NCBI GenBank assembly: GCA_036401595.1 | Contig: DASWUM010000020.1 | Span: 4,784-68,783, forward strand | Direction of reading: 5' to 3' | DNA length: 64,000 nt | Origin: Pyrinomonadaceae bacterium | Lineage (GTDB): Bacteria > Acidobacteriota > Blastocatellia > Pyrinomonadales > Pyrinomonadaceae | Part shown: piece after piece, positions 4,361 through 63,908 of the stretch | Numbering within the stretch: the stretch's first letter is position 1 | Layout: every line of letters begins with the position of its first letter | Notes under the pieces: generated by a model | Databases searched by the model: none | What the model was told of the DNA's origin: nothing | The model's input: only the letters and a program-made list of their open reading frames with translations | Translations under genes and position numbers: made by a program

Positions 4361-4466
4361 CGGTTTCACCTCAGAGACACAGGGAACAGAGATGCTATCT
4401 GCGTTTTTGATCACCGCTCGATCTCTGCGCTCGCTCTCAGGTTCTCTGTGTCTGTGCGGTGAACCG
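4361..4466. repeat. about 105-bp imperfect palindromic intergenic repeat (CACAGAG/ATCTGCG heptamer type) inside the module-1 operon
   Basis: The left arm cggtttcacctcagagacacagggaacagag pairs with the right arm ctcaggttctctgtgtctgtgcggtgaaccg. It sits between the anti-sigma stop (4342) and the HEAT gene start (4512). The paralogous junction (21831/21843) has no such insert. Confidence 0.85.
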
Positions 4467-6034: not shown

Positions 6035-6073
6035 TCCACAGATTACACAGATTTCGTCTGCGTAATCTGTGGA
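6035..6073. repeat. hairpin repeat (CACAGAT type) between the two HEAT genes of module 1
   Basis: tccacagattacacag-atttcgt-ctgcgtaatctgtgga forms a 16-bp stem with one mismatch and a 7-nt loop. There is no T-run after it. Confidence 0.85.
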
Positions 6074-7678: not shown

Positions 7679-7734
7679 GCCGCAGATGAACGCAGATCTT
7701 CGCAGATCTGCGTTCATCCGTTAAATCCGCGGCT
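7679..7734. repeat. palindromic intergenic repeat (CGCAGAT type) between convergent genes; likely bidirectional terminator
   Basis: gatgaacgcagatc (7685-7698), ttcgca, gatctgcgttcatc (7705-7718) form a perfect 14-bp stem. Outer arms gccgc / gcggc extend it. The element overlaps the TAG stop of the minus-strand gene at 7733-7735. Confidence 0.85.
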
Positions 7735-11395: not shown

Positions 11396-11427
11396 AAAAA
11401 GGCACAAGATGGTTTTGTGCCTTTTTT
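11396..11427. terminator. rho-independent, bidirectional terminator hairpin (CACAAAA repeat flavour)
   Basis: aaaaaggcacaa-gatggt-ttgtgcctttttt is a stem flanked by an A-run and a T-run. It lies between convergent genes ending at 11375 (+) and 11433 (-). Confidence 0.8.
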
Positions 11428-11432
11428 GTGGC

Positions 11433-12887: not shown

Positions 12888-12900
12888 GCGCCGGATTATA

Positions 12901-12979
12901 GCCACAGATAACACGGATTGAATACGGATCGCGAGCATGAGGCTACAGATCCGGTTTTAAAATCCGCGCAAATCCGCGT
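12901..12979. repeat. heptamer-phased intergenic repeat (CACAGAT/CACGGAT forward units, then ATCCGCG reverse units)
   Basis: gccacagataacacggattgaatacggatc...ggctacagatccggttttaaaatccgcgcaaatccgcg. The units are spaced about 10-11 nt apart. Confidence 0.8.
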
Positions 12980-14257: not shown

Positions 14258-14322
14258 CGGGACCTCCAGAGAATTGGCGGTTGGAGGTCGTCCCACGGGG
14301 TTTGGTTGCCTTACGAGGTTTT

Positions 14323-14344
14323 AGCCACGGATGAACGCGGATTA
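14323..14344. repeat. solo arm of the AGCCRC-capped heptamer repeat
   Basis: agccacggatgaacgcggatta. Its last 3 nt are the stop codon of the gene at 14342-15670. Confidence 0.7.
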
Positions 14345-15670
14345 CTTCTTCATCAAGTCGAGCACGGCTGAGGTCGTCGCTTTTACTCCAGTCCGCAAGG
14401 TCGGCTCGGGGACGGGGGCGAAGAGGGCCGAGTGCAGACCCGGCAGCGCGACACCTGATTCCCTGCTCTGCTTGACCTTCACGGGGTCTGAAGCGCCGAG
14501 CCAGAAGATCGTGGTGGGGATCTTACGGTCGAGGCTGAAATAGCTGAAGTCTTCACTCGCCATCATCGGCGGCATCTGCACCACATTCTCGTCGCCTAGC
14601 GCTTGCTTGAACACGCCGACGAGACGTTCGAGTAACTGCGGATCGTTGTACGTTGACCCCGTTCCTTCAGCGATTTTTACAATCGGCGCACGATCTTCAG
14701 GAATGCCTGCCGTCGCTGCAACACCTTTAGCGATCCGCTCGATCGCCGCCAGCACGCGTTTCCTGACTTCCTCTTTGTAAGTGCGCACCGTCAGTTGCAG
14801 ATTTACTTCGTCAGGAATGATGTTGTAACGCGTGCCGCCGTGAATCGATCCGACAGTGACCACGGCCGGATCGAGTGGCGAATTCTCACGACTTACTATT
14901 GTTTGTAAAGCCATGACGACTTGGGCCGCCACTACGATCGGATCTTTAGCTAACTCCGGCGCGGAGCCATGACCACCAATGCCTCTGATCTTAATGTCGA
15001 TCGACGTCGCACTCGCCATCGCATAACCAGGCGTGTAACCAACCTTGCCGGTTTCGAGTTCGGGTTTGTCGTGCAACGCGATCGCGAAATCAGGTCTCGG
15101 GAAATTGTTGTAAACGTTGTCGCGCAACATCGCATTTGCGCCGTCGCCGGTTTCTTCGGCCGGTTGGGCCAGCATCACCAGCGTGCCACTCCAACGACTC
15201 TTCAACTCCGTCAACATCTTCGCGCTGCCGAGAAAACTCGTCATGTGCATGTCGTGACCACACGCATGCATCACGTTTACTTCGAGGCCCGCGTCGTTCT
15301 TAGTCTTCACGCTGCTCGCGTAGGCAAGACCTGTTTTTTCCTCAACCGGGAGGGCGTCGAGCTCGGTTCTGAATAGCACCGTCGGCCCCGGTCCATTTTT
15401 CATCACTCCGACGACGCCGTAGCCAACCCACTGCTCATTTTGAAACTTGCCGATGCGTTCGGTAACTGTAAAGCCGAGTTTGCGCAACTCTCCGGCCACA
15501 AAGGCCGCAGTCTTTTCCTCGCGATGAGACAACTCTGGCGCCGTGTGGAGATTTCTGTAAGTAGTCAACCACGACGCCATGTCACGATCGATCATGGCGT
15601 CGAGCGATTGTGCGTTGACATTTACGGCCACCACGGCAAGAGCCGCGATTACGAGGAAAATTTTGCGCAT
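14342..15670 (-). CDS. M20D family amidohydrolase (aminoacylase/hippurate hydrolase-like), exported
   Basis: MHACGHDMHMTSFLGSAK, IRGIGGHGSAPE and AEETGDGA are M20D signatures. Signal peptide MRKIFLVIAALAVVAVNVNAQ. Confidence 0.85.
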   Translation of the reverse strand: MRKIFLVIAALAVVAVNVNAQSLDAMIDRDMASWLTTYRNLHTAPELSHREEKTAAFVAGELRKLGFTVTERIGKFQNEQWVGYGVVGVMKNGPGPTVLFRTELDALPVEEKTGLAYASSVKTKNDAGLEVNVMHACGHDMHMTSFLGSAKMLTELKSRWSGTLVMLAQPAEETGDGANAMLRDNVYNNFPRPDFAIALHDKPELETGKVGYTPGYAMASATSIDIKIRGIGGHGSAPELAKDPIVVAAQVVMALQTIVSRENSPLDPAVVTVGSIHGGTRYNIIPDEVNLQLTVRTYKEEVRKRVLAAIERIAKGVAATAGIPEDRAPIVKIAEGTGSTYNDPQLLERLVGVFKQALGDENVVQMPPMMASEDFSYFSLDRKIPTTIFWLGASDPVKVKQSRESGVALPGLHSALFAPVPEPTLRTGVKATTSAVLDLMKK

Positions 15671-16178: not shown

Positions 16179-16249
16179 AGAGTAGATCCTATCCACAGAT
16201 TTCACAGATTCTATCTTAATCAATCTGTGTAATCTGTGGATTCTACTCT
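16179..16249. repeat. palindromic intergenic repeat (CACAGAT type)
   Basis: The left arm agagtagatcctatccacagatttcacagatt pairs with the right arm caatctgtgtaatctgtggattctactct. It abuts the stop codon at 16249-16251. Confidence 0.85.
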
Positions 16250-18274: not shown

Positions 18275-20269
18275 ATGACCGGCACAACCGATACACGTCC
18301 TGAAAATATCAAATTCTCGGGCCGCATTCTATTCTTAACTGACGAGACCGCCCTGATACGCCAGCAGCTCGAAGCCACCGGCGACGCCGCGACCGCGCTC
18401 GAAGCCGATCTCGCGGCACGTCTGCTCAACGGCGACCTGCCGTTAATGAGCAATATCTCCACCGACGAAATCACACCCGGATGGGTCTGTTTCTACTATG
18501 ACGAAACACTCGGGCAATACGTTTATGTCGGCATGCGCGAAAGCGCGGTCAAGAAAGACGAAGTGAAAAACGGCGGCTTTGCCGTCGTCGTTTCCGGACT
18601 TTCAAAGGGCTGCGGCTCTTCGCGCGAGACAGCTCCTTACGCCGAGAAGGCAGCCGGCATCCAGCTTGTGATTGCAAAAAGTATCGAGAAGATTTACGGA
18701 CAGAACTCACAAAACATCGGTCTGTTGACGTCAACCGATTTTGGATTGATCGAACGCATCCGACGCGGCGAAGAGATTCCGCTCTCGGAGTTCACCAAAG
18801 GTCTGGATCCGATCTCGCAGGACATCGTCACTCATGGCGGACTGTTCAACTACAACAAGGCGCGGCTGTCAGGGAAAGTTTCTCCGCCGCCGATCGAAAC
18901 CGCGCCGCGTCCGATGACGATCGTCGAAAAGATTATCGCGCGTCATGCGTTTGTGACCGCCGGCAAGATCGGTATTCCCACGGTGAAGCCCGGCGATGCG
19001 TTGTTTGCGCTAGCCGACGTTCGATTCTCACATGAATACGTCACGCCGATGGCTGAGTCGCTGTTCAAACATGCGCTTGGGCCAGACGCACGCGTCTCGT
19101 CGCCCGAGTCGGTGTTTGCCTTCCGCGATCACCTGACTTTTCTCGGGCGTGTGATGTCGCCGAAGCATCGTGAAATGGGTCTGCTGGAGAAGGCCGAAGG
19201 TTTGGCGACCACGCAGCAGAGTTTTACCGAACAACAGAACATCCGTCTCTACGGGGAGAGTCCCGAAGGTGGTTCCGAAGCTATCTGTCACAACGCCGTC
19301 GTTGAGGATCTCGCACTGCCCGGACAGATCGTCATCGGCACTGATTCGCACACGTGCATGGCCGGCGTGCTCGGCTGCTTCGCTTTTGGCGTCGGCTCAA
19401 CCGACATGGCGAACGCGTGGTACACGAAAGACATTCGCATTCGTGTTCCTGAGACGGTGCGTTACGTGCTGAAAGGAAAGAAGCGCGAAGACGTCGCGGC
19501 GAAAGACGTGATGCTCTTCATACTCGCTTCGGAGTACATGAAGTCGAGCAAAGGCATCGGCAAAGTGCTCGAGTTTGCCGGCGAGGACTTGAAGAACTGG
19601 CCCATGGACGAACGAGCGACGCTGACAAATATGGCCGTCGAGGCCGGCGGCACAACCGGCATCATTGAACCCGACGAAGTCACGCTCGATTACGTCGTGC
19701 AAACACGCGGGCTCGACGCCGACGAAGTTCGTAAAGGATTTATCTACAGCGACGAGGATGCCGAGTACGCGGCCGTCTTCGAGATCGATCTGGACGAGAT
19801 TGGTCCGATGGTGGCCACGCCGGGCGATCCGCGAAACGGAATTCCGATTGAGGATCTCGACGAGGTTCGCATTGACGCCGCTTACGGCGGTTCATGTACC
19901 GGCGGCAAGATGGCCGACATGGATATGTATGCCGAGGTGCTGGAAAACGCCCTCGCGAATGGCAAACGAGTGGCCGAAGGTGTGCACCTGTACATTCAGT
20001 TTGGCTCGCAGAAAATCAAGCAATACGCACGGCAGCGAGGCTATATCGACATCTTCGAACGCGCCGGCGCTGAGCTGATCGACCCCTCGTGCGGCGCTTG
20101 TATCAATGCCGGCCCGGGCGCCTCGCCTTCGGCGGAAACCGTCACCGTCAGCGCCCAGAATCGAAATTTTCCAGGCCGCAGTGGCCCCGGCAAGCTCTAC
20201 CTCGCCTCACCCTACGTAGTCGCCGCCTCCGCGATCGCCGGCAAGATCGTCGATCCCAAGGAGATCTAG
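18275..20269 (+). CDS. aconitase-family hydro-lyase with N-terminal swivel (LeuD-like) domain fused to the catalytic (LeuC-like) domains
   Basis: N-terminal LeuD-like motifs: ISTDEITPG and GCGSSRETAPYAEKAAGIQLVIAKS. Catalytic motifs: GTDSHTCMAG, GGSCTGGKMADM, CGACINAGPG and SAQNRNFPGRSG, which supply the three Fe-S cysteines. Confidence 0.8.
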   Translation: MTGTTDTRPENIKFSGRILFLTDETALIRQQLEATGDAATALEADLAARLLNGDLPLMSNISTDEITPGWVCFYYDETLGQYVYVGMRESAVKKDEVKNGGFAVVVSGLSKGCGSSRETAPYAEKAAGIQLVIAKSIEKIYGQNSQNIGLLTSTDFGLIERIRRGEEIPLSEFTKGLDPISQDIVTHGGLFNYNKARLSGKVSPPPIETAPRPMTIVEKIIARHAFVTAGKIGIPTVKPGDALFALADVRFSHEYVTPMAESLFKHALGPDARVSSPESVFAFRDHLTFLGRVMSPKHREMGLLEKAEGLATTQQSFTEQQNIRLYGESPEGGSEAICHNAVVEDLALPGQIVIGTDSHTCMAGVLGCFAFGVGSTDMANAWYTKDIRIRVPETVRYVLKGKKREDVAAKDVMLFILASEYMKSSKGIGKVLEFAGEDLKNWPMDERATLTNMAVEAGGTTGIIEPDEVTLDYVVQTRGLDADEVRKGFIYSDEDAEYAAVFEIDLDEIGPMVATPGDPRNGIPIEDLDEVRIDAAYGGSCTGGKMADMDMYAEVLENALANGKRVAEGVHLYIQFGSQKIKQYARQRGYIDIFERAGAELIDPSCGACINAGPGASPSAETVTVSAQNRNFPGRSGPGKLYLASPYVVAASAIAGKIVDPKEI

Positions 20270-20300
20270 CCACGGATTAAACGGATCCGTGGCTGATTTT
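20268..20300 (+). terminator. likely intrinsic terminator formed by an AGCCAC-capped repeat
   Basis: agccacggat-taaacgg-atccgtggct forms a 10-bp stem, followed by gatttt. It overlaps the TAG stop at 20267-20269. Confidence 0.65.
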
Positions 20301-24936: not shown

Positions 24937-24940
24937 AAGG

Positions 24941-24959
24941 AATCTGCGTAATCTGTGGA
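24941..24959. repeat. solo arm of the heptamer repeat (ATCTGCG / ATCTGTG)
   Basis: aatctgcgtaatctgtgga sits between convergent genes ending at 24936 (+) and 24970 (-). Confidence 0.65.
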
Positions 24960-25926: not shown

Positions 25927-25941
25927 TTAAGATCAGTATTT

Positions 25942-26004
25942 GGCCGCAGATTTACGCAGATAAACGCGAATCAGATCCGCGTTCATCAGCGCAAATCCGC
26001 GGCT
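25942..26004. repeat. archetypal heptamer-phased palindromic repeat: three forward units, then three reverse units, 10-nt phase
   Basis: Read in 10-nt blocks: ggCCGCAGATtta CGCAGATaaa CGCGAATcag ATCCGCGttc ATCAGCGcaa ATCCGCGgct. The two arms are complementary at about 23 of 28 positions. Confidence 0.9.
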
Positions 26005-26015
26005 CAAAATAGGGT

Positions 26016-27906: not shown

Positions 27907-27927
27907 CTTTTGCGCCTTTTTGTGGCT
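27907..27927. repeat. solo arm of the CACAAAA repeat flavour with GTGGCT cap
   Basis: cttttgcgcctttttgtggct abuts the TAA stop (27927-29) of the upstream minus-strand gene. Confidence 0.65.
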
Positions 27928-29234
27928 TACTTTTCTTCGACGAGCTTCTTAATCAGCTCGCCCAACAACTGAATTTCTTCCTCGCTACCGCCCAGTGAGA
28001 TGTAACGCACGACGCCCTTGCGATCGATCAGGAACGAGGTTGGAATCGAAAACACTCCATAGTTGAACTCGTTCTTGTTCGAGTCTGAAACCAGAAACCC
28101 ATACGGCAGCCGGTTACGCGTCCGGAAATTACGCAGATAAACCAGCTCTTGCTCGGGTGTCAATTCGTGGCTGTCGCCGTGTCCATAGTACTTCGTCACG
28201 CCCAGGATCACGAGTCCTTTGCCCTTGTATTCGTTGTGCCAGCGCGACAGGTTTGGAAGCGTATATCGGCATGGCCCACACCACGTCGCCCAAAAGTCCA
28301 GCAACACCACCTGACCACGCAAATCGCTCAGCTTTACTGGCTGCTGCTCGATCCAGTTGTCTGCCTCAAGCTCGGGCAACGGCGACTTTGCGGAAACTAA
28401 ACTGTCGTCGAAAAGCTGATCCAAATTCAACGCCGGATCAACCCGCGCCAATCGTATCGTCGCATCCTTGTAGAGGTTCGCCGACGGCAACTGAATCGCG
28501 ATGCGTCGCAACTCGATCAGCGCCGCAACTGCCATGTCCTTCTGATTTGTTTTGAGATACGAGTCGGCAAGTAGCACGGTCGACTTCAACAACATCTCAT
28601 CGCGCCGAAAGACTTCGCCGTTTTTCAACTCGACAAACTTCTTCGACGCGTCGAGCATTTGCTTCGCGTGCGCCGTCATCGACGGATAATCCTTCGCACG
28701 CAAATACGCATCGGTGATCAGCAGTTCCATGCGATAACGATCGTCGGCGCTTTGTGGTTGATGGCGAACGTATGCCTCGACTGCGGAGTTTGCTTCGGGA
28801 AGCAGATCTTTCTTAACAGCGTAAAGAACAACCACGTTCCGGGCCGCTTGTGCCTTCTGCCCGTCGGGATCGTCTTTCAAGAGCTGACGCATCGTGGCGA
28901 GGGCTGCGTCAGCATCGCCAGCGAGATGATGAAGCATGCCGAGGTAATACAGGTCATCCGCTTTTAGAGATGAACGCAACTGAAGTGTCGCCGCATTTTT
29001 GACGGCGAGATCGCGCTGCTCTTTTTTTGTAGTGGCTTCGAGCTTTGGATCGTACGGCAGTTTCTGCTTGTTGAATTCCTGGTATTTTCGTCCCAAATAT
29101 CCGTTGGCATCTTCGAAGAGTGCCTGAGCGGAGCGGTTGTCTGCTTTCGAATCCGACTTGCCGTCCGGAGCTAACGCCTGGGCGAACGTCGAGGCGGACA
29201 CGAACAGAACAAGGAATAGAACTCTTAAAATCAT
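27927..29234 (-). CDS. exported TPR-repeat protein fused to a TlpA-family thiol-disulfide oxidoreductase domain
   Basis: Signal peptide, a TPR-like N-terminal half, and C-terminal VVLLDFWATWCGPCRYTLP. Confidence 0.85.
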   Translation of the reverse strand: MILRVLFLVLFVSASTFAQALAPDGKSDSKADNRSAQALFEDANGYLGRKYQEFNKQKLPYDPKLEATTKKEQRDLAVKNAATLQLRSSLKADDLYYLGMLHHLAGDADAALATMRQLLKDDPDGQKAQAARNVVVLYAVKKDLLPEANSAVEAYVRHQPQSADDRYRMELLITDAYLRAKDYPSMTAHAKQMLDASKKFVELKNGEVFRRDEMLLKSTVLLADSYLKTNQKDMAVAALIELRRIAIQLPSANLYKDATIRLARVDPALNLDQLFDDSLVSAKSPLPELEADNWIEQQPVKLSDLRGQVVLLDFWATWCGPCRYTLPNLSRWHNEYKGKGLVILGVTKYYGHGDSHELTPEQELVYLRNFRTRNRLPYGFLVSDSNKNEFNYGVFSIPTSFLIDRKGVVRYISLGGSEEEIQLLGELIKKLVEEK

Positions 29235-32758: not shown

Positions 32759-32787
32759 GCCACAAAAAGGCACAAAAGTCGCAAAAG
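32759..32787. repeat. CACAAAA-flavour phased repeat with GCCAC cap
   Basis: gCCACAAAAAgg CACAAAAgt CGCAAAAg lies in the divergent region between pepP and the aldehyde dehydrogenase gene. Confidence 0.75.
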
Positions 32788-34549: not shown

Positions 34550-36175
34550 GTGAAGAAAATTCATGCCTTACTAATGATCGCGATTCTTTTTAGCGTTACC
34601 TCAATGCCCCTGATGGTCCAGGCCCAAAGCGATACCGCACTCCAGCATCGGGCTGAGGTTAGCTATCCGATGAAGTTTGACAAGACACCCAAGCCGCTGC
34701 GCGAAATGTTTGATACCGGCGAGAAACCGGAACCGGCTCGCGCCGGCAAGGATTTTGAACCGGGCCGGCCGTCGCCAGTTGGAAATAGCAACAAGCCGTT
34801 TGTCGATCCCCTCGCCGATAAGAGCGTCGGCCTGCCGTCTGCTCTGGCTGAGATCAAAGCGTCCATCAACGGCACGCCTGTCGATCCCGCCGCTCGTGTG
34901 GCGCCGCCGGACACTACCGGCGACGTTGGACCAAATCATTATGTGCAGTGGGTCAACCTGCGTTACTCGATTTATACGTTGACCAGAAATGCAAACAACG
35001 AGATCACTGCATTCAATCCCGTTGCCGGATTTCCGAAAAACGGAAACGTCGTGTGGCAGGGTTTTGGCGGTCGCTGCCAGACAGACAACGACGGTGATCC
35101 GATTGTTCAATACGATCAGTTGGCCGACCGTTGGATACTGACCCAGTTCGCCGTGTCGGGCACGCCGTACACTCAGTGTGTCGCCGTTTCGACGACTCCT
35201 GATCCGACCGGGACGTACTTCCGCTACTCGTTCTCTTACAACAAGAGCTTCAACGACTATCCGAAGATGGGCGTGTGGCCGGATGCGTATTACATCAGTT
35301 ACAACATGTTTCGAAATGGCCGGACCTTCACCGGCAACACTGTGTGCGCTTTCGAACGCGCTCAGATGCTGATCGGTGGCGCCGCACGACAAGCCTGCGT
35401 CAACACGACTGCAGGCGCTAGTCTCGAACCGTCGGATCTGGAGGGCACGACACTACCACCGGCCGGTTCCCCAAACCTGTTGATGAGCATTACCAGTTCG
35501 GCAGTTCAATTTTGGCGATTCTCCGTCAACTGGACCGCGGGCACCGGAACACTAACTGGCCCAACTAACGTCGCGGGGGTTGCTGCCTTCAGTAGAGCGT
35601 GCGGCGGCGGCGTTTGCATTCCGCAACCTGGAACCACAACACAACTCGATTCGCTCGCGGATCGATTGATGTATCGACTCAGTTATCGAAACTTCGGCGA
35701 TCACGAGGCGCTGGTGATTAACCATTCGGTGACCAGTGGCTCTGGCGTTGGCGTTCGCTGGTATGAGTTGCGAAACGCAGCGGGCCAGACTTTTGGCTCT
35801 GCAGCGCCCGTGCTTTTCCAACAGGGAACGTTTGCCCCGACCAACGATTTCCGTTGGATGGGAAGCGCTGCGATGGACAAGACCGGTGGCATCGCTATCG
35901 GTTACAACATCTCGAGCTCGTCGATTGTGCCGAGCATTCGTTACGCCTATCGTGGTCCTTCCGATCCGGCAGGAACGATCGGCAATGAGACATCGATCCT
36001 GGTGGGAAGTGGCTCGCAAAACGGAAACCTGACACGCTGGGGTGACTACAGCACCATCAGCGTCGACCCGGTTGACGGCTGCACGATGGTCTTCACGACG
36101 CAGTTCCAGCCTATTACCGGCAACTTCAACTGGAGCACGTTTATCCACAGCTTCAAGCTTTCGACCTGCAACTAG
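34550..36175 (+). CDS. hypothetical exported protein
   Basis: I prefer GTG 34550 (MKKIHALLMIAILFSVTSMPLMVQAQ), with RBS ggagga at 34540-34545. The coding frame is long and clean. I noted the motif PPDTTGDVGPNHYVQWVN but do not recognise the family. Confidence 0.65.
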   Translation: MKKIHALLMIAILFSVTSMPLMVQAQSDTALQHRAEVSYPMKFDKTPKPLREMFDTGEKPEPARAGKDFEPGRPSPVGNSNKPFVDPLADKSVGLPSALAEIKASINGTPVDPAARVAPPDTTGDVGPNHYVQWVNLRYSIYTLTRNANNEITAFNPVAGFPKNGNVVWQGFGGRCQTDNDGDPIVQYDQLADRWILTQFAVSGTPYTQCVAVSTTPDPTGTYFRYSFSYNKSFNDYPKMGVWPDAYYISYNMFRNGRTFTGNTVCAFERAQMLIGGAARQACVNTTAGASLEPSDLEGTTLPPAGSPNLLMSITSSAVQFWRFSVNWTAGTGTLTGPTNVAGVAAFSRACGGGVCIPQPGTTTQLDSLADRLMYRLSYRNFGDHEALVINHSVTSGSGVGVRWYELRNAAGQTFGSAAPVLFQQGTFAPTNDFRWMGSAAMDKTGGIAIGYNISSSSIVPSIRYAYRGPSDPAGTIGNETSILVGSGSQNGNLTRWGDYSTISVDPVDGCTMVFTTQFQPITGNFNWSTFIHSFKLSTCN

Positions 36176-36252
36176 AACGCAGATTAACGCGGATGAGGAC
36201 GGATTTTGTGCCGTTTTCATCCGCGTAGATCTGTGTGCTAGGATCTGCGGCT
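36176..36252. repeat. heptamer-phased intergenic repeat (CGCAGAT/CGCGGAT forward, ATCCGCG/ATCTGTG/ATCTGCG reverse)
   Basis: gaacgcagattaacgcggatgaggacggattttgtgccgttttcatccgcgtagatctgtgtgctaggatctgcggct starts right after the TAG stop at 36173-36175. Confidence 0.85.
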
Positions 36253-41060: not shown

Positions 41061-41088
41061 GTTGTGCTTTTTGTGCCTTTTTGTGGCT
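41061..41088. repeat. CACAAAA-flavour repeat, reverse units with GTGGCT cap
   Basis: gTTGTGCtttTTGTGCCtttTTGTGGCT lies just upstream of the 39579-41024 gene. Confidence 0.7.
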
Positions 41089-41133
41089 AACTGATTTTTG
41101 TGGCCCCTAGTCTAACAGACCCTAAATAGTTTA

Positions 41134-50740: not shown

Positions 50741-50838
50741 TGCTCTTACTTCCGGTTCTTATCTCAAGACGTTGGATATCTAGCCGCGCCGCCTAACGAC
50801 CTGACGTTAACCTGCGGGCGCACCAGCGCCAGTCAGTT

Positions 50839-54786: not shown

Positions 54787-54799
54787 GAGCGAAACTCGG

Positions 54800-55102
54800 A
54801 TGTCATCAGATGCATTAATCTCTGCGCTTTACGTGTTCGCGCTCGCAGCGTTTCTGGGCTACCAGGTGATCTCGCGTGTGCCGCCGCTGCTGCACACGCC
54901 TTTGATGTCGGCGACGAATGCAATCTCGGGTATTTCTCTCGTCGGTTCGATCGTCACGGCCGGTGCGCGCTACAACACAGTCAGCACGATTCTCGGTTTC
55001 ATCGCAGTTGTTTGCTCGACCACAAACGTCGTCGGCGGTTTTGTGATCACAGATCGCATGTTGAAGATGTTCAAGCGGAAAGAGATTGCCAAGAAGGAAT
55101 AG
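54800..55102 (+). CDS. pntAB: NAD(P) transhydrogenase subunit alpha part 2 (membrane)
   Basis: I start the gene at MSSDALISALYVFALAAFLGYQVI (atg at 54800, RBS aggagc). HTPLMSATNAISGI is the conserved motif. Confidence 0.9.
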   Translation: MSSDALISALYVFALAAFLGYQVISRVPPLLHTPLMSATNAISGISLVGSIVTAGARYNTVSTILGFIAVVCSTTNVVGGFVITDRMLKMFKRKEIAKKE

Positions 55103-55117
55103 CCACAGATCTCACGG

Positions 55118-56503
55118 ATGCAAACCTACTTCATCGAACTCAGCTACCTGCTCGCTTCAATCTTCTTCATCCTCGGATTGAAGGGAATGAGCCATCCCGA
55201 AACGGCGAAGCGCGGTATGCACCTCGCCGAGTTTGGCATGTTGATGGCGATCATCGGCACGCTGATGCATCACGAGATCGTCACCTACACGTGGATTCTC
55301 GCCGGTCTCGCAGTAGGTTCTGTTGTCGGACTCGCGATGGGCTTGTGGGTGCCGATGACGGCGATGCCGCAACGAACCGCGCTCTCACACGCGTTCGGCG
55401 CTTTCGCCGCAGCACTCGTCGGTATTTCCGAGTTTTATCGAGTCTATTCGGCGGGCGGCCATCTCGAGAAGATCACGATGGGCGCGCTCGGTTTCGAAGT
55501 GATGCTCGGTGCGCTCACAACTACCGGGAGCCTCCTCGCATTCGCAAAACTTCAGGGACTCGTACGCGGCACGCCGATGACCTACAAGGGCCAGAATGTT
55601 TTCAACATGGTCCTGCTCGCCGTCACGATTGGAATCTTTGTCTATCTCGTCTTCTTCCCGGCTTCGATGCCGCTCTTTTTCACGATGGTAGGTTTCGCAT
55701 TCATCTTCGGACTGTTGCTGGTGATGCCAATCGGATCGGCTGACATGCCGGTCGTTATGTCGCTGCTGAACTCGTACGCCGGTCTCGCTTCGGCAGCAAC
55801 TGGATTCGTCCTTTCAAACAAAGTGCTGATCATCGCGGGCACGCTCGACGGTTTTTCCGGATTCATACTCTCGATCTTGATGTGCCGGGCGATGAATCGC
55901 TCGATGACGAATGTTCTGTTCGGTGCGTTTGGAAGTGTGACCACTGCCGCAGCGGGCGGCGAGCAGCATGGAACGATGCGCGAGGTTGGACTTGAAGACA
56001 TCGCCACGCAACTCGCTTACGCGAACAAAGTCGTCTTCGTGCCGGGTTATGGTCTTGCGACCGCGCAGGCACAACACGCAGTGCGCGAACTCGCAGATGT
56101 GCTCGAGAAACGCGGCGTCACAGTCAAATACGGAATTCATCCGGTCGCAGGGCGAATGCCGGGACACATGAACGTTTTGCTTGCCGAAGCGAACGTCCCT
56201 TATTCGTCGCTGTACGAGCTCGAGCAAATCAATCCTGAATTTCCGAGCACTGATGTTGCAGTCGTGATCGGCGCAAACGACGTCGTCAATCCTGACGCGC
56301 GCGACAATCCCGGCAGCCCGATTGCCGGCATGCCGATTCTTGAAGTTGATCGATCGAAGTCAGTGGTCGTCTTGAAGCGTGGCCAGGGCAAAGGTTTTTC
56401 CGGTCTCGAGAACCCTTTGTTTTTTAAGCCCGTAACAGGCATGCTCTATGGCGATGCGAAAGACACGTTGACTCGACTCGTTCAAGCCGTGCAACACGCA
56501 TAG
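55118..56503 (+). CDS. pntB: NAD(P) transhydrogenase subunit beta
   Basis: Multi-TM N-terminus and C-terminal dIII motifs PGYGLATAQAQH, GIHPVAGRMPGHMNVLLAEA and VIGANDVVNP. Confidence 0.95.
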   Translation: MQTYFIELSYLLASIFFILGLKGMSHPETAKRGMHLAEFGMLMAIIGTLMHHEIVTYTWILAGLAVGSVVGLAMGLWVPMTAMPQRTALSHAFGAFAAALVGISEFYRVYSAGGHLEKITMGALGFEVMLGALTTTGSLLAFAKLQGLVRGTPMTYKGQNVFNMVLLAVTIGIFVYLVFFPASMPLFFTMVGFAFIFGLLLVMPIGSADMPVVMSLLNSYAGLASAATGFVLSNKVLIIAGTLDGFSGFILSILMCRAMNRSMTNVLFGAFGSVTTAAAGGEQHGTMREVGLEDIATQLAYANKVVFVPGYGLATAQAQHAVRELADVLEKRGVTVKYGIHPVAGRMPGHMNVLLAEANVPYSSLYELEQINPEFPSTDVAVVIGANDVVNPDARDNPGSPIAGMPILEVDRSKSVVVLKRGQGKGFSGLENPLFFKPVTGMLYGDAKDTLTRLVQAVQHA

Positions 56504-56527
56504 CCACAAAAGGCACAAGAAACACAA
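56502..56527. repeat. CACAAAA-flavour repeat with AGCCAC cap fused to the pntB TAG stop
   Basis: tAGCCACAAAAggCACAAGAaaCACAA. Confidence 0.7.
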
Positions 56528-56542: not shown

Positions 56543-58189
56543 ATGCGAAGATTCTTAACCGCACTTGTATTGGCGAGCGCACTCGTCACTACGCTTCCTG
56601 TAACCCACGCCCAACGCGCTGCTGCTGTTAAATCAAAAAAGATTGGCTCGTCTGTAATCACGCAACGTGGCGTCGACACGATTGCCGCCAATCAAATGAG
56701 AGACTATTTGACCTTCATCGCCTCCGACGAAATGGAGGGACGCGATACGCCGTCTCGCGGACTCGACACTACCGCGAAGTTCCTCGCGATGAATCTCACG
56801 CGTTGGAACTTCAAACCGGCCGGCGACAACGGCACCTTTTTTCAACGCATTGAGCTGAATCGCAATCGAGCCGACAGCGGTCAAACAAAAGTCGAGCTCA
56901 ACGGCAAAGCATTAACGGCGGGAACGGATTTTCTTCCGGGAAGCGGCTCTGGAAATGTTTCGGGACAACTGGTCTTCGCAGGCTCAGGTTGGTTTGTTAA
57001 GTCGAAAGACATTGACGCTTACAAGGGTATCGATCCAAGAGGACGAATTGTGGTGATCGCCGGAGTTCCAAACATGCCCCCCCGCGGCGTAGCGCGTGCC
57101 GACTATGGCAAGTACGGCGAAGAATCGATGAACCCGAGTGATTACGCGCGCAGCAAGGGTGTTGTCGGATTGATTTACATAGCTGATTCTCAATACGTCA
57201 CAAACTGGCAACGCAATCGTGCGCGCATGGAGCGCGGCTCGACAGTCGTCGCGAGGTTTCAAACGCAGTCCACCACGCCCGTTTTGCCGTCAATCGTGAT
57301 CACTCCCGAGACTGCAACGGCACTCTTCGCTGGCGAAGCACAAACACTTTCTGAATCGACACAACCGTTCCTGTTGAGCGAGCAGAAGAAAGTCAGCATG
57401 AACATTGCCAACAGCAATCAGATCATTCCCACGCAGAACGTCGTCGCTGTTTGGGAAGGCAGCGATCCGACTCTGAAGGCTGAATACGTCGCGCTGGGCG
57501 CACATTACGATCACGTTGGCAGCGGCTGTCCGCCGTCCGGCACCGACACAATTTGCAATGGCGCGGATGACGACGGTTCGGGTACGACTGCTCTGCTCGC
57601 GATGGCCGAGGCACTCTCCAAGGCGCCGGCGCGTCCGAAACGTTCGGTGTTGTTTGTCTGGCATTGCGGCGAAGAAAAAGGCTTGTGGGGCTCGCGCTAC
57701 TTCACCGAGTATCCGACTGTGCCACTCAATCAGATCGTGGCGCAAATCAATATCGATATGATCGGACGAAGCAAGAAGGAAGGCGACACAAACTCGCGCA
57801 ACTCTGAGCTAACCGGACCGGATGCGGTTTACCTGATTGGCTCAACGATGATGAGCACCGAGCTTGGTGAGCTTGTCAATAACGTCAACAAGTCGTACCT
57901 GAATATTACCTTTGATACGAAGTACGACGATCCGAAGGATCCAAACCGGTTCTTCTTCCGAAGCGATCATTACAACTACGCGCGCAAAGGGATTCCGATC
58001 ATCTTCTTCTTTGATGGCGTGCACGAAGACTATCATCGTCCCGGAGACACGGCTGACAAGATCGACTACCAGAAGATGGAGAAGATCACGCGCACGGTTT
58101 ACATGACGTTGTGGGAGATTGGAAACAGGCCGGCGCGATTGAAGGTGGATAAGCCGCTGCCGGCTCAGATAACAGGTAGCACGGATTAA
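56543..58189 (+). CDS. M28 family metallopeptidase (aminopeptidase), exported
   Basis: Signal peptide. LGAHYDHVG, GADDDGSGTTALLAMAEAL, WHCGEEKGLWGS and SDHYNYARKGIP are M28 zinc-site motifs. Confidence 0.85.
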   Translation: MRRFLTALVLASALVTTLPVTHAQRAAAVKSKKIGSSVITQRGVDTIAANQMRDYLTFIASDEMEGRDTPSRGLDTTAKFLAMNLTRWNFKPAGDNGTFFQRIELNRNRADSGQTKVELNGKALTAGTDFLPGSGSGNVSGQLVFAGSGWFVKSKDIDAYKGIDPRGRIVVIAGVPNMPPRGVARADYGKYGEESMNPSDYARSKGVVGLIYIADSQYVTNWQRNRARMERGSTVVARFQTQSTTPVLPSIVITPETATALFAGEAQTLSESTQPFLLSEQKKVSMNIANSNQIIPTQNVVAVWEGSDPTLKAEYVALGAHYDHVGSGCPPSGTDTICNGADDDGSGTTALLAMAEALSKAPARPKRSVLFVWHCGEEKGLWGSRYFTEYPTVPLNQIVAQINIDMIGRSKKEGDTNSRNSELTGPDAVYLIGSTMMSTELGELVNNVNKSYLNITFDTKYDDPKDPNRFFFRSDHYNYARKGIPIIFFFDGVHEDYHRPGDTADKIDYQKMEKITRTVYMTLWEIGNRPARLKVDKPLPAQITGSTD

Positions 58190-58196
58190 CGCGGAT
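58180..58196. repeat. two phased units (CACGGATtaaCGCGGAT) spanning two convergent stop codons
   Basis: gCACGGATTAACGCGGAT contains the TAA of the M28 gene (58187-58189) and the stop of rsmI (58186-58188, minus strand). Confidence 0.6.
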
Positions 58197-59028
58197 TTTT
58201 AAGAACGATTAACTGTCGGTAAGCTTCGGCGCGTGAGAGACCTAACTCACGCGCCGCTTTCTTTAGGGCGGCGCGGTGGTCGAGGCCGTCCTGTTCGTAC
58301 TTGTCGACCAGGGTCGCGATGCTCATTTCCGGCTTACTCGCGACGCCGATCACGTTGCGATCGATCAGCACCACGATTTCTCCGCGAATATCGCTCTTCT
58401 GATCCGCATAATCGGCGGCCAGTTCGCTCAAACGTCCACGCCTGATCTCCTCGTGAAGTTTTGTCAGTTCCCTAGCGACGACGGCTTCTCGTTCGCCTAA
58501 AACTTCGAGTGCATCCTTGAGTGTTGCCGCGAGTCGATGTGGCGCTTCGTAGAAGATCAGTGTACCCGGCACTGATTGCAGCTCACTTAGGCGTGTTCGA
58601 CGTGCGTTCGTCCGCGAGGGAAGAAAGCCCGCGAAGAAAAACTCATCAGTCGGCAGGCCGGCCGCGATCAATGCAGAGATTAGTGCGCTTGGACCAGGCA
58701 CTGGCACCACCGTGATGTCCTTTTCAATCGCCGCTCGAACAAGACGAAAGCCAGGATCGCTGATGGACGGCGTGCCCGCGTCGGAAACAACCGCGATATT
58801 GTTGCCCTGTTGCAACTGCTCGACTAGCTGCGTCGCGCGTTGTTGCTCGTTGTGATCGTGATAGCTGAGCGTTTTGGTTTTGATGCCGTAGTGATTGAGG
58901 AGTTTGTTTGTATGTCGCGTGTCTTCGCAGGCGATCAGATCGACGTCCTTGAGGATCTGCACTGCGCGGTGCGTGATGTCTGCAAGATTGCCGATAGGAG
59001 TCGCGACGAGATACAGGGTTCCAGGCAT
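58186..59028 (-). CDS. rsmI: 16S rRNA (cytidine1402-2'-O)-methyltransferase
   Basis: MPGTLYLVATPIGNLADITHRAVQILKDVDLIACEDTRHT is the hallmark RsmI N-terminus. Length is 280 aa. Confidence 0.9.
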   Translation of the reverse strand: MPGTLYLVATPIGNLADITHRAVQILKDVDLIACEDTRHTNKLLNHYGIKTKTLSYHDHNEQQRATQLVEQLQQGNNIAVVSDAGTPSISDPGFRLVRAAIEKDITVVPVPGPSALISALIAAGLPTDEFFFAGFLPSRTNARRTRLSELQSVPGTLIFYEAPHRLAATLKDALEVLGEREAVVARELTKLHEEIRRGRLSELAADYADQKSDIRGEIVVLIDRNVIGVASKPEMSIATLVDKYEQDGLDHRAALKKAARELGLSRAEAYRQLIVLKNPR

Positions 59029-59960: not shown

Positions 59961-59993
59961 CGTACTGTAGGGGCGGCCCTCCGTGGCCGCCCC
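59961..59993. repeat. solo copy of the GC-hairpin element arm seen at 2645-2676
   Basis: cgtactgtaggggcggccctccgtggccgcccc is identical over 32 nt to arm 1 of the 2642-2775 element. It forms a 9-bp GC stem, GGGGCGGCC/GGCCGCCCC. It lies 18 nt downstream of the stop of the gene at 60011-60535. Confidence 0.9.
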
Positions 59994-60010
59994 TGCGTCG
60001 AACTCTTTCT

Positions 60011-63827: not shown

Positions 63828-63828
63828 T

Positions 63829-63905
63829 TAGCCGCGGATGAACGCAGAAAAACGCGGATCAGAAAAGAAAAATTCTGATCCGCGTCATCTGCGTTTATCC
63901 GCGGC
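63829..63905. repeat. 77-bp heptamer-phased palindromic repeat between convergent genes
   Basis: The left arm AGCCGCGGATgaaCGCAGAAaaaCGCGGATcaga pairs, after an aaagaaaaat loop, with the right arm tctgATCCGCGtcATCTGCGtttATCCGCGGCT. Forward units are exactly 10 nt apart. Confidence 0.9.
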
Positions 63906-63908
63906 TAC

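What the first reader, a model, noticed from the sequence alone, without database searches (positions are those of the whole stretch)
63829..63905. Dense family of gene-boundary repeats built from CRCRRAW heptamers phased about every 10 bp and capped by AGCCRC
Seen in sequence: at least 18 loci in 64 kb share one architecture. They are 4361-4466, 6035-6073, 7679-7734, 11396-11427, 12901-12979, 14323-14344, 16179-16249, 20268-20294, 24941-24959, 25942-26004, 27907-27927, 31428-31459, 32759-32787, 36176-36252, 41061-41088, 56502-56527, 58180-58196 and 63829-63905. Each has 2-4 heptamers (CGCGGAT, CGCAGAT, CACAGAT, CACGGAT, or an A-rich flavour CACAAAA) spaced about 10 nt apart. In complete copies these are followed by the same number of reverse-complement units, giving long imperfect hairpins. 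Solo arms also occur. The outer ends are almost always AGCC(A/G)C / G(T/C)GGCT. Four copies have a TAG or TAA stop fused directly to the cap (tAGCCAC at 20267 and 56501; gcggcta at 7733; gtggctta at 27927). The one-helical-turn phasing suggests recognition by a protein on one DNA face. Alternatively, the hairpins could act as terminators or RNA-stability elements, or the family could be REP/MITE-like and mobilised in trans. The three sequence flavours sharing one cap and one phase are the unusual point.
Basis: seen in the sequence. Interest (0 to 1): 0.65.

Follow-up and report, generated by a model that had tools for sequence, protein, structure and literature searches.

The report
Modular palindromic repeats at gene ends
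A soil acidobacterium (Pyrinomonadaceae) carries, just after many of its stop codons, a large family of short hairpin-forming DNA repeats built from 7-base modules spaced 9-10 bases apart; this is a previously undescribed, oddly modular variant of the REP/MITE-type intergenic repeats known from other bacteria.

Summary
All 18 loci exist as written, and I found two or three more. The degenerate heptamer CRCRRAW is no more frequent than chance. Its same-strand 9-11 nt phasing, however, occurs 26 times against 1.5 +/- 1.2 in shuffles. A sequence model finds 21 arms (E<0.01), all at gene boundaries.

The window is from a Pyrinomonadaceae (Acidobacteriota) MAG. The family occurs across about 160 related loci in four sub-flavours. 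Of capped arms, 82% lie in the roughly 11% of DNA that is intergenic. They are enriched between convergent genes and depleted between divergent genes. The cap often directly abuts the stop codon or supplies it.

Complete copies are 27-108 nt palindromes (dG -16 to -67 kcal/mol). They have no target-site duplication, no conserved interior, usually no T-tail, and no sense/antisense asymmetry. Arms of one copy resemble each other no more than arms at other loci or in other species. Core positions stay intact at an orthologous site across 17 species.

Best reading: a DNA-level, REP/REPIN-like, non-autonomous dispersed repeat superfamily with modular arms. The mobilising or binding protein is not in the window. 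Any effect on the 3' ends of transcripts is inferred, not shown. It is a new variant of a known kind, of moderate interest.

The parts
6035..6073 (.). Complete hairpin, (A/G)TCC-capped 'B' sub-flavour (TCCACAGATTACACAGATT / inverse), 2+2 units with 9-nt period, between two HEAT-repeat genes of one operon
   Evidence: dG -26.1, z -8.4; E 4e-5 and 2e-3
7676..7737 (.). Complete AGCC-capped hairpin (3+2 units) between convergent genes. Stop TAA 7676-7678 abuts the left cap. Stop TAG of the minus-strand gene (7733-7735) overlaps the right cap
   Evidence: (dG -33.1, z -7.7); T-tail on the minus strand only
11396..11435 (.). A-rich flavour hairpin (AAAAAGGCACAA..TTGTGCCTTTTTTGTGGCT) between convergent genes. 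Stop TGA(-) 11433-11435 is fused to the cap
   Evidence: dG -24.5, z -6.0
12899..12979 (.). Degenerate AGCC-capped hairpin (3 units + 2 inverse units). It lies between the stop of gene 12980-14296(-) and a TATAAT box next to the ATG of gene 11433-12938(-)
   Evidence: (z -3.9)
14320..14348 (+). Solo arm TTTAGCCACGGATGAACGCGGATTA. The stop TAA of gene 14342-15670(-) is formed by the last unit's T plus the spacer
   Evidence: best hit, E 6e-7. At this site L006 carries an ACAGGATT-type hairpin instead
16179..16249 (.). B sub-flavour hairpin (2+2 units) sitting inside remnants of a TAGGTCCTAT-type hairpin that occupies this site in relatives
   Evidence: (dG -36.5, z -7.8)
20266..20296 (.). Short hairpin TAGCCACGGATTAAACGGATCCGTGGCT followed by GATTTT. 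The aconitase stop TAG (20267-20269) overlaps the cap. The site is orthologously occupied in at least 17 species
   Evidence: (dG -20, z -6.9)
24937..24959 (-). Solo B-type arm (reverse complement: TCCACAGATTACGCAGATT) between convergent genes
   Evidence: E 1e-4
25940..26006 (.). Complete hairpin, 3+3 units, GGCC/GGCT caps, inside a thioredoxin-like gene cluster. The orthologous site is 3 nt long in L025 and 14 nt in L050
   Evidence: (dG -49, z -10)
27907..27929 (-). A-rich solo arm (reverse complement: TAAGCCACAAAAAGGCGCAAAAG). It fills the 24-nt gap between the stop TAA (27927-27929, minus strand) and the next start codon
31426..31461 (-). Solo arm with 3 units (reverse complement: AGCCGCGGATGAACGCGGATAAGACGCGGATC) between convergent genes. 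The plus-strand gene's stop TAG abuts the inner end. The minus-strand gene reads into the cap and stops at the TGA of the first spacer
   Evidence: d = -10; E 7e-6
32759..32787 (+). A-rich solo arm GCCACAAAAAGGCACAAAAGTCGCAAAAG in a divergent (promoter) region, with phased A-tracts
   Evidence: (gene starts)
36172..36252 (.). Hairpin (3+2 units) plus one extra capped unit (ATCTGCGGCT), directly after stop TAG 36173-36175
   Evidence: I2; dG -46.6, z -8.2
41061..41105 (-). A-rich arm (reverse complement: AGCCACAAAAAGGCACAAAAAGCACAAC) plus a second cap unit (GCCACAAAAATCAG) in a divergent region, 7 nt from a start codon
53465..53488 (-).
   Evidence: E 0.0098; the weakest accepted hit
55100..55126 (+). 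The ATG of the pntB-like gene (55118) lies inside the second unit
   Evidence: E 2e-4
56501..56527 (+). A-rich solo arm TAGCCACAAAAGGCACAAGAAACACAA. The stop TAG of the pntB-like gene overlaps the cap
58180..58202 (+). Cap-less two-unit arm CACGGATTAACGCGGAT. Its TTAA spacer holds the stops of both convergent genes (58187-58189 plus strand, 58186-58188 minus strand)
   Evidence: E 4e-4
63828..63907 (.). The locus given in the finding. It is the most perfect copy in the window: TTAGCC cap, 3+3 units, 18-nt A-rich loop. It lies 1 nt after stop TAG 63825-63827, between convergent genes
   Evidence: I3; dG -61, z -14.5
4361..4466 (.). Doubtful member: a 106-nt hairpin of different sequence (CGGTTTCACC..CACAGGGAACAGAGAT..). 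It has no cap, no phased CRCRGAT units and no hit with model R1
   Evidence: I4; dG -55, z -6.6; no hit

Best explanation
These are copies of a lineage-wide (Pyrinomonadaceae/Blastocatellia) superfamily of short, non-autonomous, dispersed palindromic repeats. They behave most like REP/REPIN elements.

Anatomy. Each arm has a foot tag and cap, T-N-A-(G/T)-CC. This is followed by 1-4 modules. A module has an invariant core (A/C)-R-C-R-(G/A)-A-(T/A) and a free 2-4-nt A/T-rich spacer, giving a period of 9-10 nt. A complete element is two such arms in inverted order around a variable centre.

Shown. The family is real. It is confined to gene boundaries, chiefly 3' ends, and often touches or supplies the stop codon. 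It has no target-site duplication and no conserved interior. Arms at different loci and in different species are as alike as the two arms of one copy. Occupancy and flavour differ between orthologous sites. Core positions are conserved where a site stays occupied. There is no strand asymmetry of the kind expected from selection on the RNA.

Inferred. The copies are spread and/or kept intact at the DNA level by a sequence-specific protein encoded elsewhere in the genome. The likely candidate is a domesticated transposase (HUH/Y1 type) or another single-copy enzyme that leaves no target-site duplication. It would read the repeated modules as multiple binding sites and the cap as the processing point. 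Solo arms would be deletion products of hairpins; L003 and L004 differ by one 24-nt indel between TTTC repeats. Once transcribed, complete copies must form very stable 3' or intercistronic stem-loops. These probably protect upstream mRNA or pause polymerases or ribosomes, as a secondary effect.
For: - Phase: 26 phased pairs against 1.5 expected.
- Unbiased model: 21 arms, all at gene boundaries.
- Location: 140 capped arms in 1.97 Mb from about 160 related loci. 115 lie outside ORF bodies, although intergenic DNA is about 11% of the total. Counts are tandem 68, convergent 33, divergent 8, against length-based expectation of 67, 17 and 24.
- Stop codons: the stop of the gene reading into the cap lies at distance 0 in 19 cases, at distance 1 in 18, and at the first-spacer TGA in 5. 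The rest are scattered over 2-75 nt.
- Tag: TTAG is the commonest tag even for arms not fused to a stop.
- Structure: 45 complete capped hairpins of 27-108 nt, with fold z-scores of -4 to -14.5.
- Flanks extend the inverted repeat rather than forming direct duplications: 3-nt direct matches 6 of 45, inverted 11 of 45.
- Arm identity within a copy is 0.79-0.88. Between copies the mean is 0.78-0.90 and the best is 0.87-0.96, across species whose other intergenic DNA cannot be aligned.
- Orthologous sites: the site of window 25927-26015 is 3 nt in L025, 14 nt in L050 and holds an unrelated 193-nt palindrome in L008. The aconitase site is occupied in at least 17 species with the first unit CC-R-C-R-GAT intact and only the R positions varying, while neighbouring third-codon positions vary freely. 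Hairpin and solo states are interspersed among these species.
- R-states of neighbouring units are correlated (odds ratios 12.9 and 10.4).
- The lower-GC stretch at 41.8-55 kb next to a tRNA has no internal copy.
- No RNA-level asymmetry.
Against: - No transposase, RAYT or other candidate enzyme is in the window (Pfam).
- None was found in the 2 Mb of related loci. No arm pair encloses a gene. tblastn with two Y1 transposase sequences recalled from memory gave nothing, which is a weak negative.
- No strain-level pair was available, so no clean filled-versus-empty site with exact junctions was seen. The nearest relatives are below 93% nucleotide identity.
- Individual arms are direct-repeat arrays, not palindromes, unlike classical REPs.
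- Long persistence and intact cores at orthologous sites, including solo arms, fit a host-selected binding site as well as they fit a mobile element.
- Within-genome homogeneity of spacers is only weakly significant (p about 0.04, inflated by paired arms).
- Gene calls are crude ORF calls.
Confidence: 0.5

Rival explanations
1. Host RNA elements. The hairpins exist because, once transcribed, they act as terminators (T-less, lineage-specific) or as 3'-to-5' exonuclease barriers that set the mRNA 3' end or differential stability within operons. Their sequence similarity would be secondary.
For: - Very stable folds.
- Strong bias to gene 3' ends and depletion from divergent regions.
- Placement right at stop codons.
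- Canonical hairpin-plus-T terminators are not enriched in this DNA, so another device may be used.
- At the aconitase site, hairpin-bearing orthologues carry a T-run that solo orthologues lack.
- From my own knowledge: REPs in E. coli stabilise upstream mRNA, and REPs within about 15 nt of a stop codon reduce translation (Newbury 1987; Liang, Rudd and Deutscher 2015).
Against: - Only 2 of about 19 window copies have a T-tail.
- G:U-compatible mismatches are as common on the antisense strand as on the sense strand (90 against 82).
- The sense fold is not more stable than the antisense fold (41 against 51, p = 0.45).
- Solo arms cannot fold, occur in both orientations (10 against 5), and still keep intact cores.
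- Some orthologues have no hairpin at the same site (L017, L018, L028, L034).
- Terminators have no need to share a heptamer, cap and tag across loci and species.
Confidence: 0.2
2. Chromosomal protein-binding arrays. The phased units are sites for an abundant host DNA-binding protein (nucleoid-associated, topology or insulator type) that lines up on roughly one face of the helix at gene ends. The A-rich flavour would also act as intrinsically bent DNA. The copies are kept by selection, not by mobility.
For: - The core is invariant while the spacer is free.
- The period of 9-10 nt alternates a GC-rich core with an A/T-rich spacer.
- Intact two-unit solo arms persist at the orthologous aconitase site in six species.
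- There is no orientation or strand bias.
- The A-rich flavour is A4-6 tracts phased at 10 bp, a classic bent-DNA arrangement (established knowledge), and two window copies of it lie in divergent promoter regions.
Against: - This does not explain the terminal cap and tag, the inverted arrangement with unconstrained loops of 3-40 nt, or the equal unit numbers on both arms.
- It does not explain the replacement of one flavour by another at the same site, or empty orthologous sites.
- A mix of 9- and 10-nt periods rotates successive sites by up to 36 degrees.
- No candidate protein was identified.
Confidence: 0.2
3. In-situ growth without mobility. Local hairpins and terminators expand by slipped-strand duplication of a 9-10-nt unit, with templated copying onto the opposite arm (quasi-palindrome correction). 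Similarity between loci would be convergence or gene conversion.
For: - Neighbouring units in an arm share their R-states.
- Unit number varies between orthologues (0-4).
- Other, unrelated unit sequences in relatives (TAGGTCCTAT, TTCGAAAT, ACAGGATT) show the same architecture of direct units followed by inverse units.
- Indels at short direct repeats occur, as between L003 and L004.
Against: - Arms of one copy are no more alike than arms of different loci or species.
- The same cap, tag and even spacer (for example TCCACAGATTACRCAGATT and AGCCACAAAAAGGCACAAAA) recur at many non-orthologous loci in many species.
- Slippage alone cannot create the same 20-30-nt sequence independently.
Confidence: 0.1

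Closest known systems
REP / BIME / REPIN elements mobilised by RAYT (Y1 HUH) transposases (Proteobacteria; GTAG-tagged REPs also reported in class Acidobacteriia, PMC3733652; REPINs, PMC3116915)
   Same: Short imperfect palindromes. High density, about 0.3 per kb here. Extragenic, with a bias to gene 3' ends and often within a few nt of the stop codon. No target-site duplication. A conserved short tag at the foot of the stem. Several sequence types per genome. Long vertical persistence with conserved sequence. The enzyme is not encoded next to most copies.
   Different: Each arm is a direct-repeat array of 7-nt cores with spacers, not itself a 20-40-nt palindrome. The tag is T-N-A-(G/T), commonly TTAG, and not GTAG or CGTC. 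Stems can reach 30 bp or more. Solo non-palindromic arms are common and remain intact. No RAYT has been linked. The same window also holds a classical GTAG-tagged REPIN-like pair of unrelated sequence (2642-2775).
MITEs, and transposon ends with multiple subterminal transposase-binding sites (Tn7, Mu and IS21 ends; plant hAT/CACTA subterminal repeats; comparison from my own knowledge)
   Same: Terminal inverted arms. A defined terminal cap. Several phased, repeated short motifs inside each end. Non-autonomous and small.
   Different: No target-site duplication of 2-4 bp. No conserved internal sequence. No autonomous partner found in 2 Mb.
Pneumococcal BOX elements (boxA-boxB(n)-boxC; from my own knowledge)
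   Same: Modular intergenic repeats with a variable number of a tandem internal module. They form stable stem-loops and lie at gene boundaries.
   Different: BOX modules are 45-59 nt, not 9-10 nt. BOX elements are not simple two-arm palindromes made of one repeated unit.
Tandem heptamer repeats: cyanobacterial STRR, and TAACTGA direct repeats of Beggiatoaceae, Cyanobacteria and Bacteroidetes (PMC4679880)
   Same: Intergenic sets of 2-6 copies of one heptamer. Wide within-lineage distribution. No known mechanism.
   Different: Those repeats are contiguous (7-nt period), essentially direct only, and mostly lie just upstream of start codons. Here the cores are separated by spacers (9-11-nt period), are capped, are usually mirrored by inverse units, and lie after stop codons.
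Rho-independent terminators
   Same: Stem-loops immediately downstream of genes. Two window copies (7679-7734 on the minus strand, 20267-20295 on the plus strand) and the A-rich hairpin at 11396 fit the pattern.
   Different: Most copies lack a U-tract. The sequence is shared between loci. Solo arms occur, and the hairpin is absent from some orthologous sites.

Membership tests
REP/REPIN (RAYT-associated) | Short imperfect palindrome, extragenic, present in many copies per genome | tested here: met
   45 complete hairpins of 27-108 nt. About 19 loci in 64 kb. 82% of capped arms lie outside ORF bodies.
REP/REPIN (RAYT-associated) | Conserved tetranucleotide tag (GTAG or similar) at the foot of the hairpin | tested here: inconclusive
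   A tag exists but is T-N-A-(G/T). TTAG is the commonest form, and the CACGAAA flavour has CGAT. It partly overlaps stop codons.
REP/REPIN (RAYT-associated) | The basic unit (REP) is itself a palindrome; a REPIN is two such REPs in inverted order | tested here: not met
   Arms are direct arrays of CRCRGAT units with no self-complementarity. Only the whole element is palindromic.
REP/REPIN (RAYT-associated) | A single-copy RAYT gene flanked by the repeats in the same genome | not testable with these tools
   None in the window (Pfam) or in 2 Mb of related loci. Whole genomes could not be scanned.
REP/REPIN (RAYT-associated) | No target-site duplication | tested here: met
   Flanks match as inverted rather than direct repeats: 3-nt direct 6 of 45, inverted 11 of 45.
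MITE (DDE-transposase derived) | Terminal inverted repeats | tested here: met
   Capped inverted arms.
MITE (DDE-transposase derived) | Target-site duplication flanking the element | tested here: not met
   No 2-4-bp direct duplication under three alternative definitions of the element end.
MITE (DDE-transposase derived) | A related autonomous IS with the same ends; a conserved internal remnant | tested here: inconclusive
   No arm pair enclosing a gene in 1.97 Mb. Centres of long copies are unrelated to one another. Whole genomes were not searched.
Intrinsic (Rho-independent) terminator | G+C-rich stem-loop followed directly by a U/T tract on the sense strand | tested here: not met
   Only 7679-7734 (minus strand) and 20267-20295 (plus strand) pass. 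Terminator-like sites number 32 and 26, against 25 +/- 5-6 in shuffles.
Contiguous tandem heptamer repeats (STRR / TAACTGA type) | Head-to-tail copies with a 7-nt period, direct orientation only | tested here: not met
   No pairs at a spacing of 7-8 nt in the window. The period is 9-11 nt with spacers, and inverse units are usually present.
Any Rfam RNA family | Match at the gathering threshold | tested here: not met
   Only one tRNA in 64 kb.

The most novel reading that the evidence does not exclude
The modules are phased binding sites for a dedicated, still unknown DNA-binding or processing protein of Blastocatellia. This protein installs or maintains capped arrays precisely at stop codons. 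That would make the family either a new class of mobile element, without target-site duplication, that integrates next to stop codons and regenerates them from its own TTAG tag, or a domesticated system that marks gene 3' ends on the DNA. The different flavours (CRCRGAT, CACAAAA, CACGAAA, and perhaps TAGGTCCTAT and others) would be co-evolving protein/site pairs.
Probability: 0.15. Interest if true: 0.75.

Novelty: new variant of a known kind. Interest (0 to 1): 0.5.

Why it matters
Acidobacteriota are among the most abundant soil bacteria. Almost nothing is known about their non-coding DNA, terminators or mobile miniature elements.

This family makes up about a quarter of the intergenic DNA in the native part of the window. 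It supplies or touches many stop codons and sits inside operons. It therefore probably shapes gene ends, mRNA 3' structure and MAG assembly breakpoints across a whole bacterial family.

Its modular design (cap plus phased heptamers, mirrored) differs from classical REPs and MITEs. If the partner protein is found, the family offers a tractable case of repeat/protein co-evolution with several flavours.

On a practical level, model R1 and the motif definitions can be used to annotate these elements and to avoid mis-calling gene ends.

Tried and rejected
- Rfam gathering search: only one tRNA.
- RNA evidence: the only RNA run holding related sequence is a metatranscriptome kept as contigs with 0.09-0.11 word share. 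It is unusable for 3'-end mapping.
- Strain-level polymorphism: Logan contigs of four runs laid on 24-37 kb were dominated by other related taxa. They showed only chimeric joints between repeat copies. The genome and metagenome scans returned no relative above about 93% nucleotide identity.
- Target-site duplication, TA or TNA: rejected.
- Autonomous partner: none found, whether as arm pairs 250-3500 nt apart enclosing a gene or by tblastn with IS200 TnpA and E. coli RAYT sequences recalled from memory (a weak negative because the queries are from memory).
- RNA-level selection tests, G:U asymmetry and sense-versus-antisense stability: no signal.
- In-situ inverted duplication as the origin of hairpins: rejected, because within-copy arm identity does not exceed between-copy identity.
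- Within-genome homogenisation of spacers: only marginal.
- Literature: no description of such repeats in Blastocatellia or Pyrinomonadaceae was found. A search for the E. coli REP-translation paper did not retrieve it.
- CsrA/GGA-motif, Hfq, IHF and OmpR/PhoB-box resemblances were considered from memory. I dropped them because the AGA and AAA variants, the number of sites and their 3'-end position do not fit.
Full report
**Source and context.** The window is from an uncultured Pyrinomonadaceae bacterium (Acidobacteriota, Blastocatellia). One of its proteins is encoded identically on an NCBI MAG contig (GCA_036401665.1) and on a Logan soil-metagenome contig. Both are 100% identical to the window over 2.3 and 21.2 kb, so the repeats are not assembly artefacts. 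A scan with the aconitase gene (18275-20269) returned 80 loci, nearly all labelled Pyrinomonadaceae, Blastocatellia or Acidobacteriota. A metagenome scan with the protein at 26667-27902 added 80 more. Together with the window this gives 1.97 Mb for comparison. Pfam annotation shows ordinary housekeeping genes and no transposase. These include two ECF sigma/anti-sigma/HEAT operons, peptidases, aconitase, thioredoxin-like proteins and transhydrogenase.

- The degenerate heptamer CRCRRAW is not over-represented: 237 observed against about 233 under a second-order Markov model. By that single criterion the finding would fail.
- Same-strand spacing is extremely non-random: 8, 16 and 2 pairs at 9, 10 and 11 nt, and almost nothing else up to 40 nt.
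- The total of 26 compares with 1.47 +/- 1.2 (maximum 6) in 200 dinucleotide-preserving shuffles.
- The same 9-10-nt peak appears in the related loci.
- A sequence-only model built from 73 capped arms (A2, R1) and run without filters finds 21 arms with E<0.01 in 14 loci. Every one is at a gene boundary. The next hits, inside genes, have E>0.2.
- With the five A-rich loci, the window holds about 19 loci. By my ORF calls they cover about 23% of the intergenic positions outside the 41.8-55 kb stretch.

**Anatomy.**
- The aligned arms show an outer tag, a cap, then modules. In the GAT flavour the module core is (A/C)-R-C-R-G-A-T. C3, G5, A6 and T7 are fixed, and positions 2 and 4 are purines that toggle A/G. 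The spacer is 2-3 nt and A/T-rich, commonly GAA, TTA, AAA or TA.
- The cap is (A/G)(G/T)CC. GCC caps go with 2- or 3-nt spacers. TCC caps always go with 2-nt spacers, giving a 9-nt period.
- I distinguish four sub-flavours: C (AGCC + CGCGGAT-type units), B (ATCC + CACAGATTA), A (AGCC + CACAAAAAGG, i.e. phased A-tracts) and D (CGATCC + CACGAAA, in more distant relatives). Intermediates such as CACAAAT and CGCGAAT link them.
- Outside the cap the consensus is T-N-A-G. TTAG is the commonest form even when no stop codon is involved.
- Purine states of neighbouring units are correlated, with odds ratios 12.9 and 10.4.
- Forty-five complete capped hairpins were found. They are 27-108 nt long, usually have equal unit numbers on both arms, have loops of 3-40 nt that are unrelated between copies, and have dG of -16 to -67 kcal/mol.
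- The window's complete copies fold with z-scores of -4 to -14.5.

**Where they sit.**
- Of 140 capped arms, 115 lie outside ORF bodies, although intergenic DNA (with margins) is about 11% of the sequence.
- Among intergenic arms, 68 are between tandem genes, 33 between convergent genes and 8 between divergent genes. Expectation from region lengths is about 67, 17 and 24.
- The elements therefore go with gene 3' ends. Two of the window's A-rich copies lie in divergent promoter regions.
- The stop codon of the gene reading towards the cap lies exactly at the cap far more often than anywhere else. TAG overlaps the AG of the cap in 19 cases. TAA or TGA followed by GCC occurs in 18. The third reading frame runs in and stops at the TGA of a GAT-GAA spacer in 5. 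The remainder are spread thinly over 2-75 nt.
- In the window six stops are fused to caps, and several more lie in spacers (14342; the TTAA at 58186-58189 serves both convergent genes).
- The tag persists without a stop codon, and the three frames are used about equally. The simplest reading is that the element's own end supplies the stop once a gene abuts it. Targeting of stop codons is not excluded.

**Comparative evidence.**
- At the orthologous position after aconitase, at least 17 species carry a CRCRGAT element starting at the stop codon. In all of them the first unit is intact (CC-R-C-R-GAT) and only the two purines vary. Third-codon positions just upstream vary freely, including transversions.
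- Spacers, the number of units, and the presence of the second arm differ between these species. Hairpin-bearing species (L004, L006, L008, L010, L011, L012, L019) and solo species (L003, L005, L013, L014, L015, L050) are interspersed.
- L003 and L004 differ by one 24-nt indel bounded by TTTC. This is what a slipped deletion of one arm would leave.
- Other species carry unrelated periodic palindromes at the same position (TAGGTCCTAT-type in L007, L016 and L023; TTCGAAAT-type in L020 and L021). Others carry nothing (L017, L018, L028, L034).
- The site of window 25927-26015 is 3 nt long in L025, 14 nt in L050, and holds an unrelated 193-nt palindrome in L008.
- At 16179-16249 the window's hairpin sits between remnants of the TAGGTCCTAT hairpin that relatives carry there.
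- Density falls with distance from the window's species.
- The lower-GC stretch at 41.8-55 kb beside a tRNA has no internal copy.

**DNA or RNA?** If the hairpins were selected as RNA, mismatches should favour G:U on the transcribed strand, and the sense fold should be the stronger.
- In tandem-gene contexts, G:U-compatible mismatches number 90 on the sense strand and 82 on the antisense strand.
- The sense fold is the more stable in 41 of 92 cases (p = 0.45).
- Solo arms occur in both orientations, 10 against 5.
- Only two window copies have a T-tail, and terminator-like sites are not enriched (32 and 26 against about 25 in shuffles).

These tests are noisy, but none points to RNA-level selection. 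The family behaves as a double-strand-symmetric DNA feature.

**Copy-paste or local growth?** The two arms of one copy are no more alike (0.79-0.88) than arms from different loci and species. The mean between-copy identity is 0.78-0.90 and the best is 0.87-0.96. This is what a dispersed family derived from common masters looks like. It argues against each hairpin arising locally by inverted duplication. It also means the arm sequence is conserved across species whose other intergenic DNA cannot be aligned. That requires continuing spread, homogenisation or selection.

**What kind of element?**
- There is no target-site duplication under three alternative definitions of the end. The flanks continue the inverted repeat instead. 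There is also no conserved interior. Together these argue against a DDE-type MITE.
- The absence of a target-site duplication, the foot tag, the 3'-end habitat, the density and the persistence are REP/REPIN-like (PMC3116915, PMC3733652).
- The arms themselves are not palindromes, the tag is not GTAG, and no RAYT was seen.
- The window also contains a classical GTAG-tagged palindrome in an inverted pair (2642-2683 / 2734-2775) and again at 59967. It is absent from all related loci. Ordinary REPINs therefore coexist with the family studied here and are distinct from it.

**Best account (confidence about 0.5).** This is a REP-like, non-autonomous, DNA-level repeat superfamily. Its repeated modules are multiple recognition sites, and its cap is the end, for a protein encoded elsewhere. 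Solo arms are decay products. Any role as a stem-loop in RNA is a consequence. Steps shown and steps inferred are separated in the Best explanation section.

**Rivals.**
- Host RNA elements (0.2).
- Binding arrays for a chromosomal protein, with the A-rich flavour as bent DNA (0.2).
- Purely local slippage growth (0.1).

The second rival overlaps with the best account. The conserved cores at orthologous sites, and in solo arms, are the strongest hint that a sequence-specific protein reads these units.

**Novelty.** Full-text searches found no description of such repeats in Blastocatellia or Pyrinomonadaceae. The nearest described things are REP/BIME/REPINs, BOX elements and tandem heptamer sets such as TAACTGA (PMC4679880). 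Each differs in defined ways; see the closest-known and membership-test sections. I rate the family a new variant of a known kind and of moderate interest. The main open question, the partner protein and whether integration is aimed at stop codons, can be tested on complete genomes.

Noticed in passing
window 2642-2683 and 2734-2775 (inverted pair, 50-nt spacer); 59960-59996: A classical GTAG-tagged palindrome (GTAGGGGCGGCCCTCCGTGGCCGCCC), once as a REPIN-like inverted doublet and once singly. It gives 5 matches at up to 1 mismatch against 0.16 expected. It is absent from all 162 related loci, so it looks species-specific and unrelated to the heptamer family.
   Followed up: partly
L007, L016, L023 (after the aconitase stop); L003/L004/L006/L007/L008/L011/L027 at the site orthologous to window 16177-16248: A second periodic palindromic family built from AGGTCCTAT(N) units (about 10-nt period, direct then inverse units). 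It occupies sites that carry CRCRGAT elements in other species.
   Followed up: partly
L020 and L021 after the aconitase stop; L006 at the site of window 14297-14341; L027; L024: Further unit flavours with the same direct-then-inverse architecture: TTCGAAAT (7-8-nt period) and ACAGGATT (about 10-nt period). L024 has a pure GGCAGGAG tandem array.
   Followed up: no
L009, L012, L022 (e.g. L012 at the site of window 12880-12979; L022 after aconitase): Another REP-like hairpin family, GACAAGTCAGGAAGAGGGGCTTGCCCCCGCTC, reminiscent of Pseudomonas-type G/C-rich REPs.
   Followed up: no
window 4361-4466: A 106-nt hairpin (dG -55 kcal/mol, z -6.6) between the anti-sigma gene and the first HEAT-repeat gene. 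Its sequence is unrelated to the capped heptamer arms and its nature is unknown.
   Followed up: partly
window about 41800-55000; tRNA at 53336-53409(-): A stretch of lower G+C (0.50-0.53) ending near a tRNA gene. It has long intergenic regions, contains genes for DUF2585, a metallo-beta-lactamase fold protein, TonB_C, LprI, BNR, a beta-lactamase, DUF6602 and SEC-C proteins, and has no internal copy of the repeat family. It may be an acquired island.
   Followed up: partly
window 20300-20340 and the orthologous position in about 25 loci: A conserved motif, CTGAAAC-N16/17-CACTAACCTACCGAGAG, directly upstream of the ECF sigma gene at 20349. It looks like an autoregulated ECF-type promoter. The repeat element fills the space between it and the aconitase stop.
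   Followed up: no
window 16727-16745 and orthologues: A conserved GCTTCTTGAAAATTGCT(N)TTTAG block upstream of gene 16249-16668(-). It is present in about 12 species and immediately abutted by heptamer units. It is probably a regulatory site.
   Followed up: no
window 12888-12912 (minus strand): GGCTATAATCCGGCGCATG: a TATAAT box 6 nt before the ATG of gene 11433-12938(-), conserved in L005, L006, L011, L012 and L013. This suggests a leaderless transcript. The repeat cap abuts the box.
   Followed up: no
window 2805-7678 and 20349-24936: Two paralogous operons (ECF sigma, zf-HC2 anti-sigma, TPR/HEAT protein, HEAT protein). The first has repeat elements in its internal gaps. In the second the genes overlap or lie 0-11 nt apart, and the only element follows the last gene.
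   Followed up: no
L084-L118: In many metagenome relatives the tblastn match to the 411-aa DsbD_TM/AhpC-TSA protein spans about 1650-1830 nt instead of 1236 nt. This suggests an insertion, a fusion with the neighbouring redoxin gene, or split matches.
   Followed up: no
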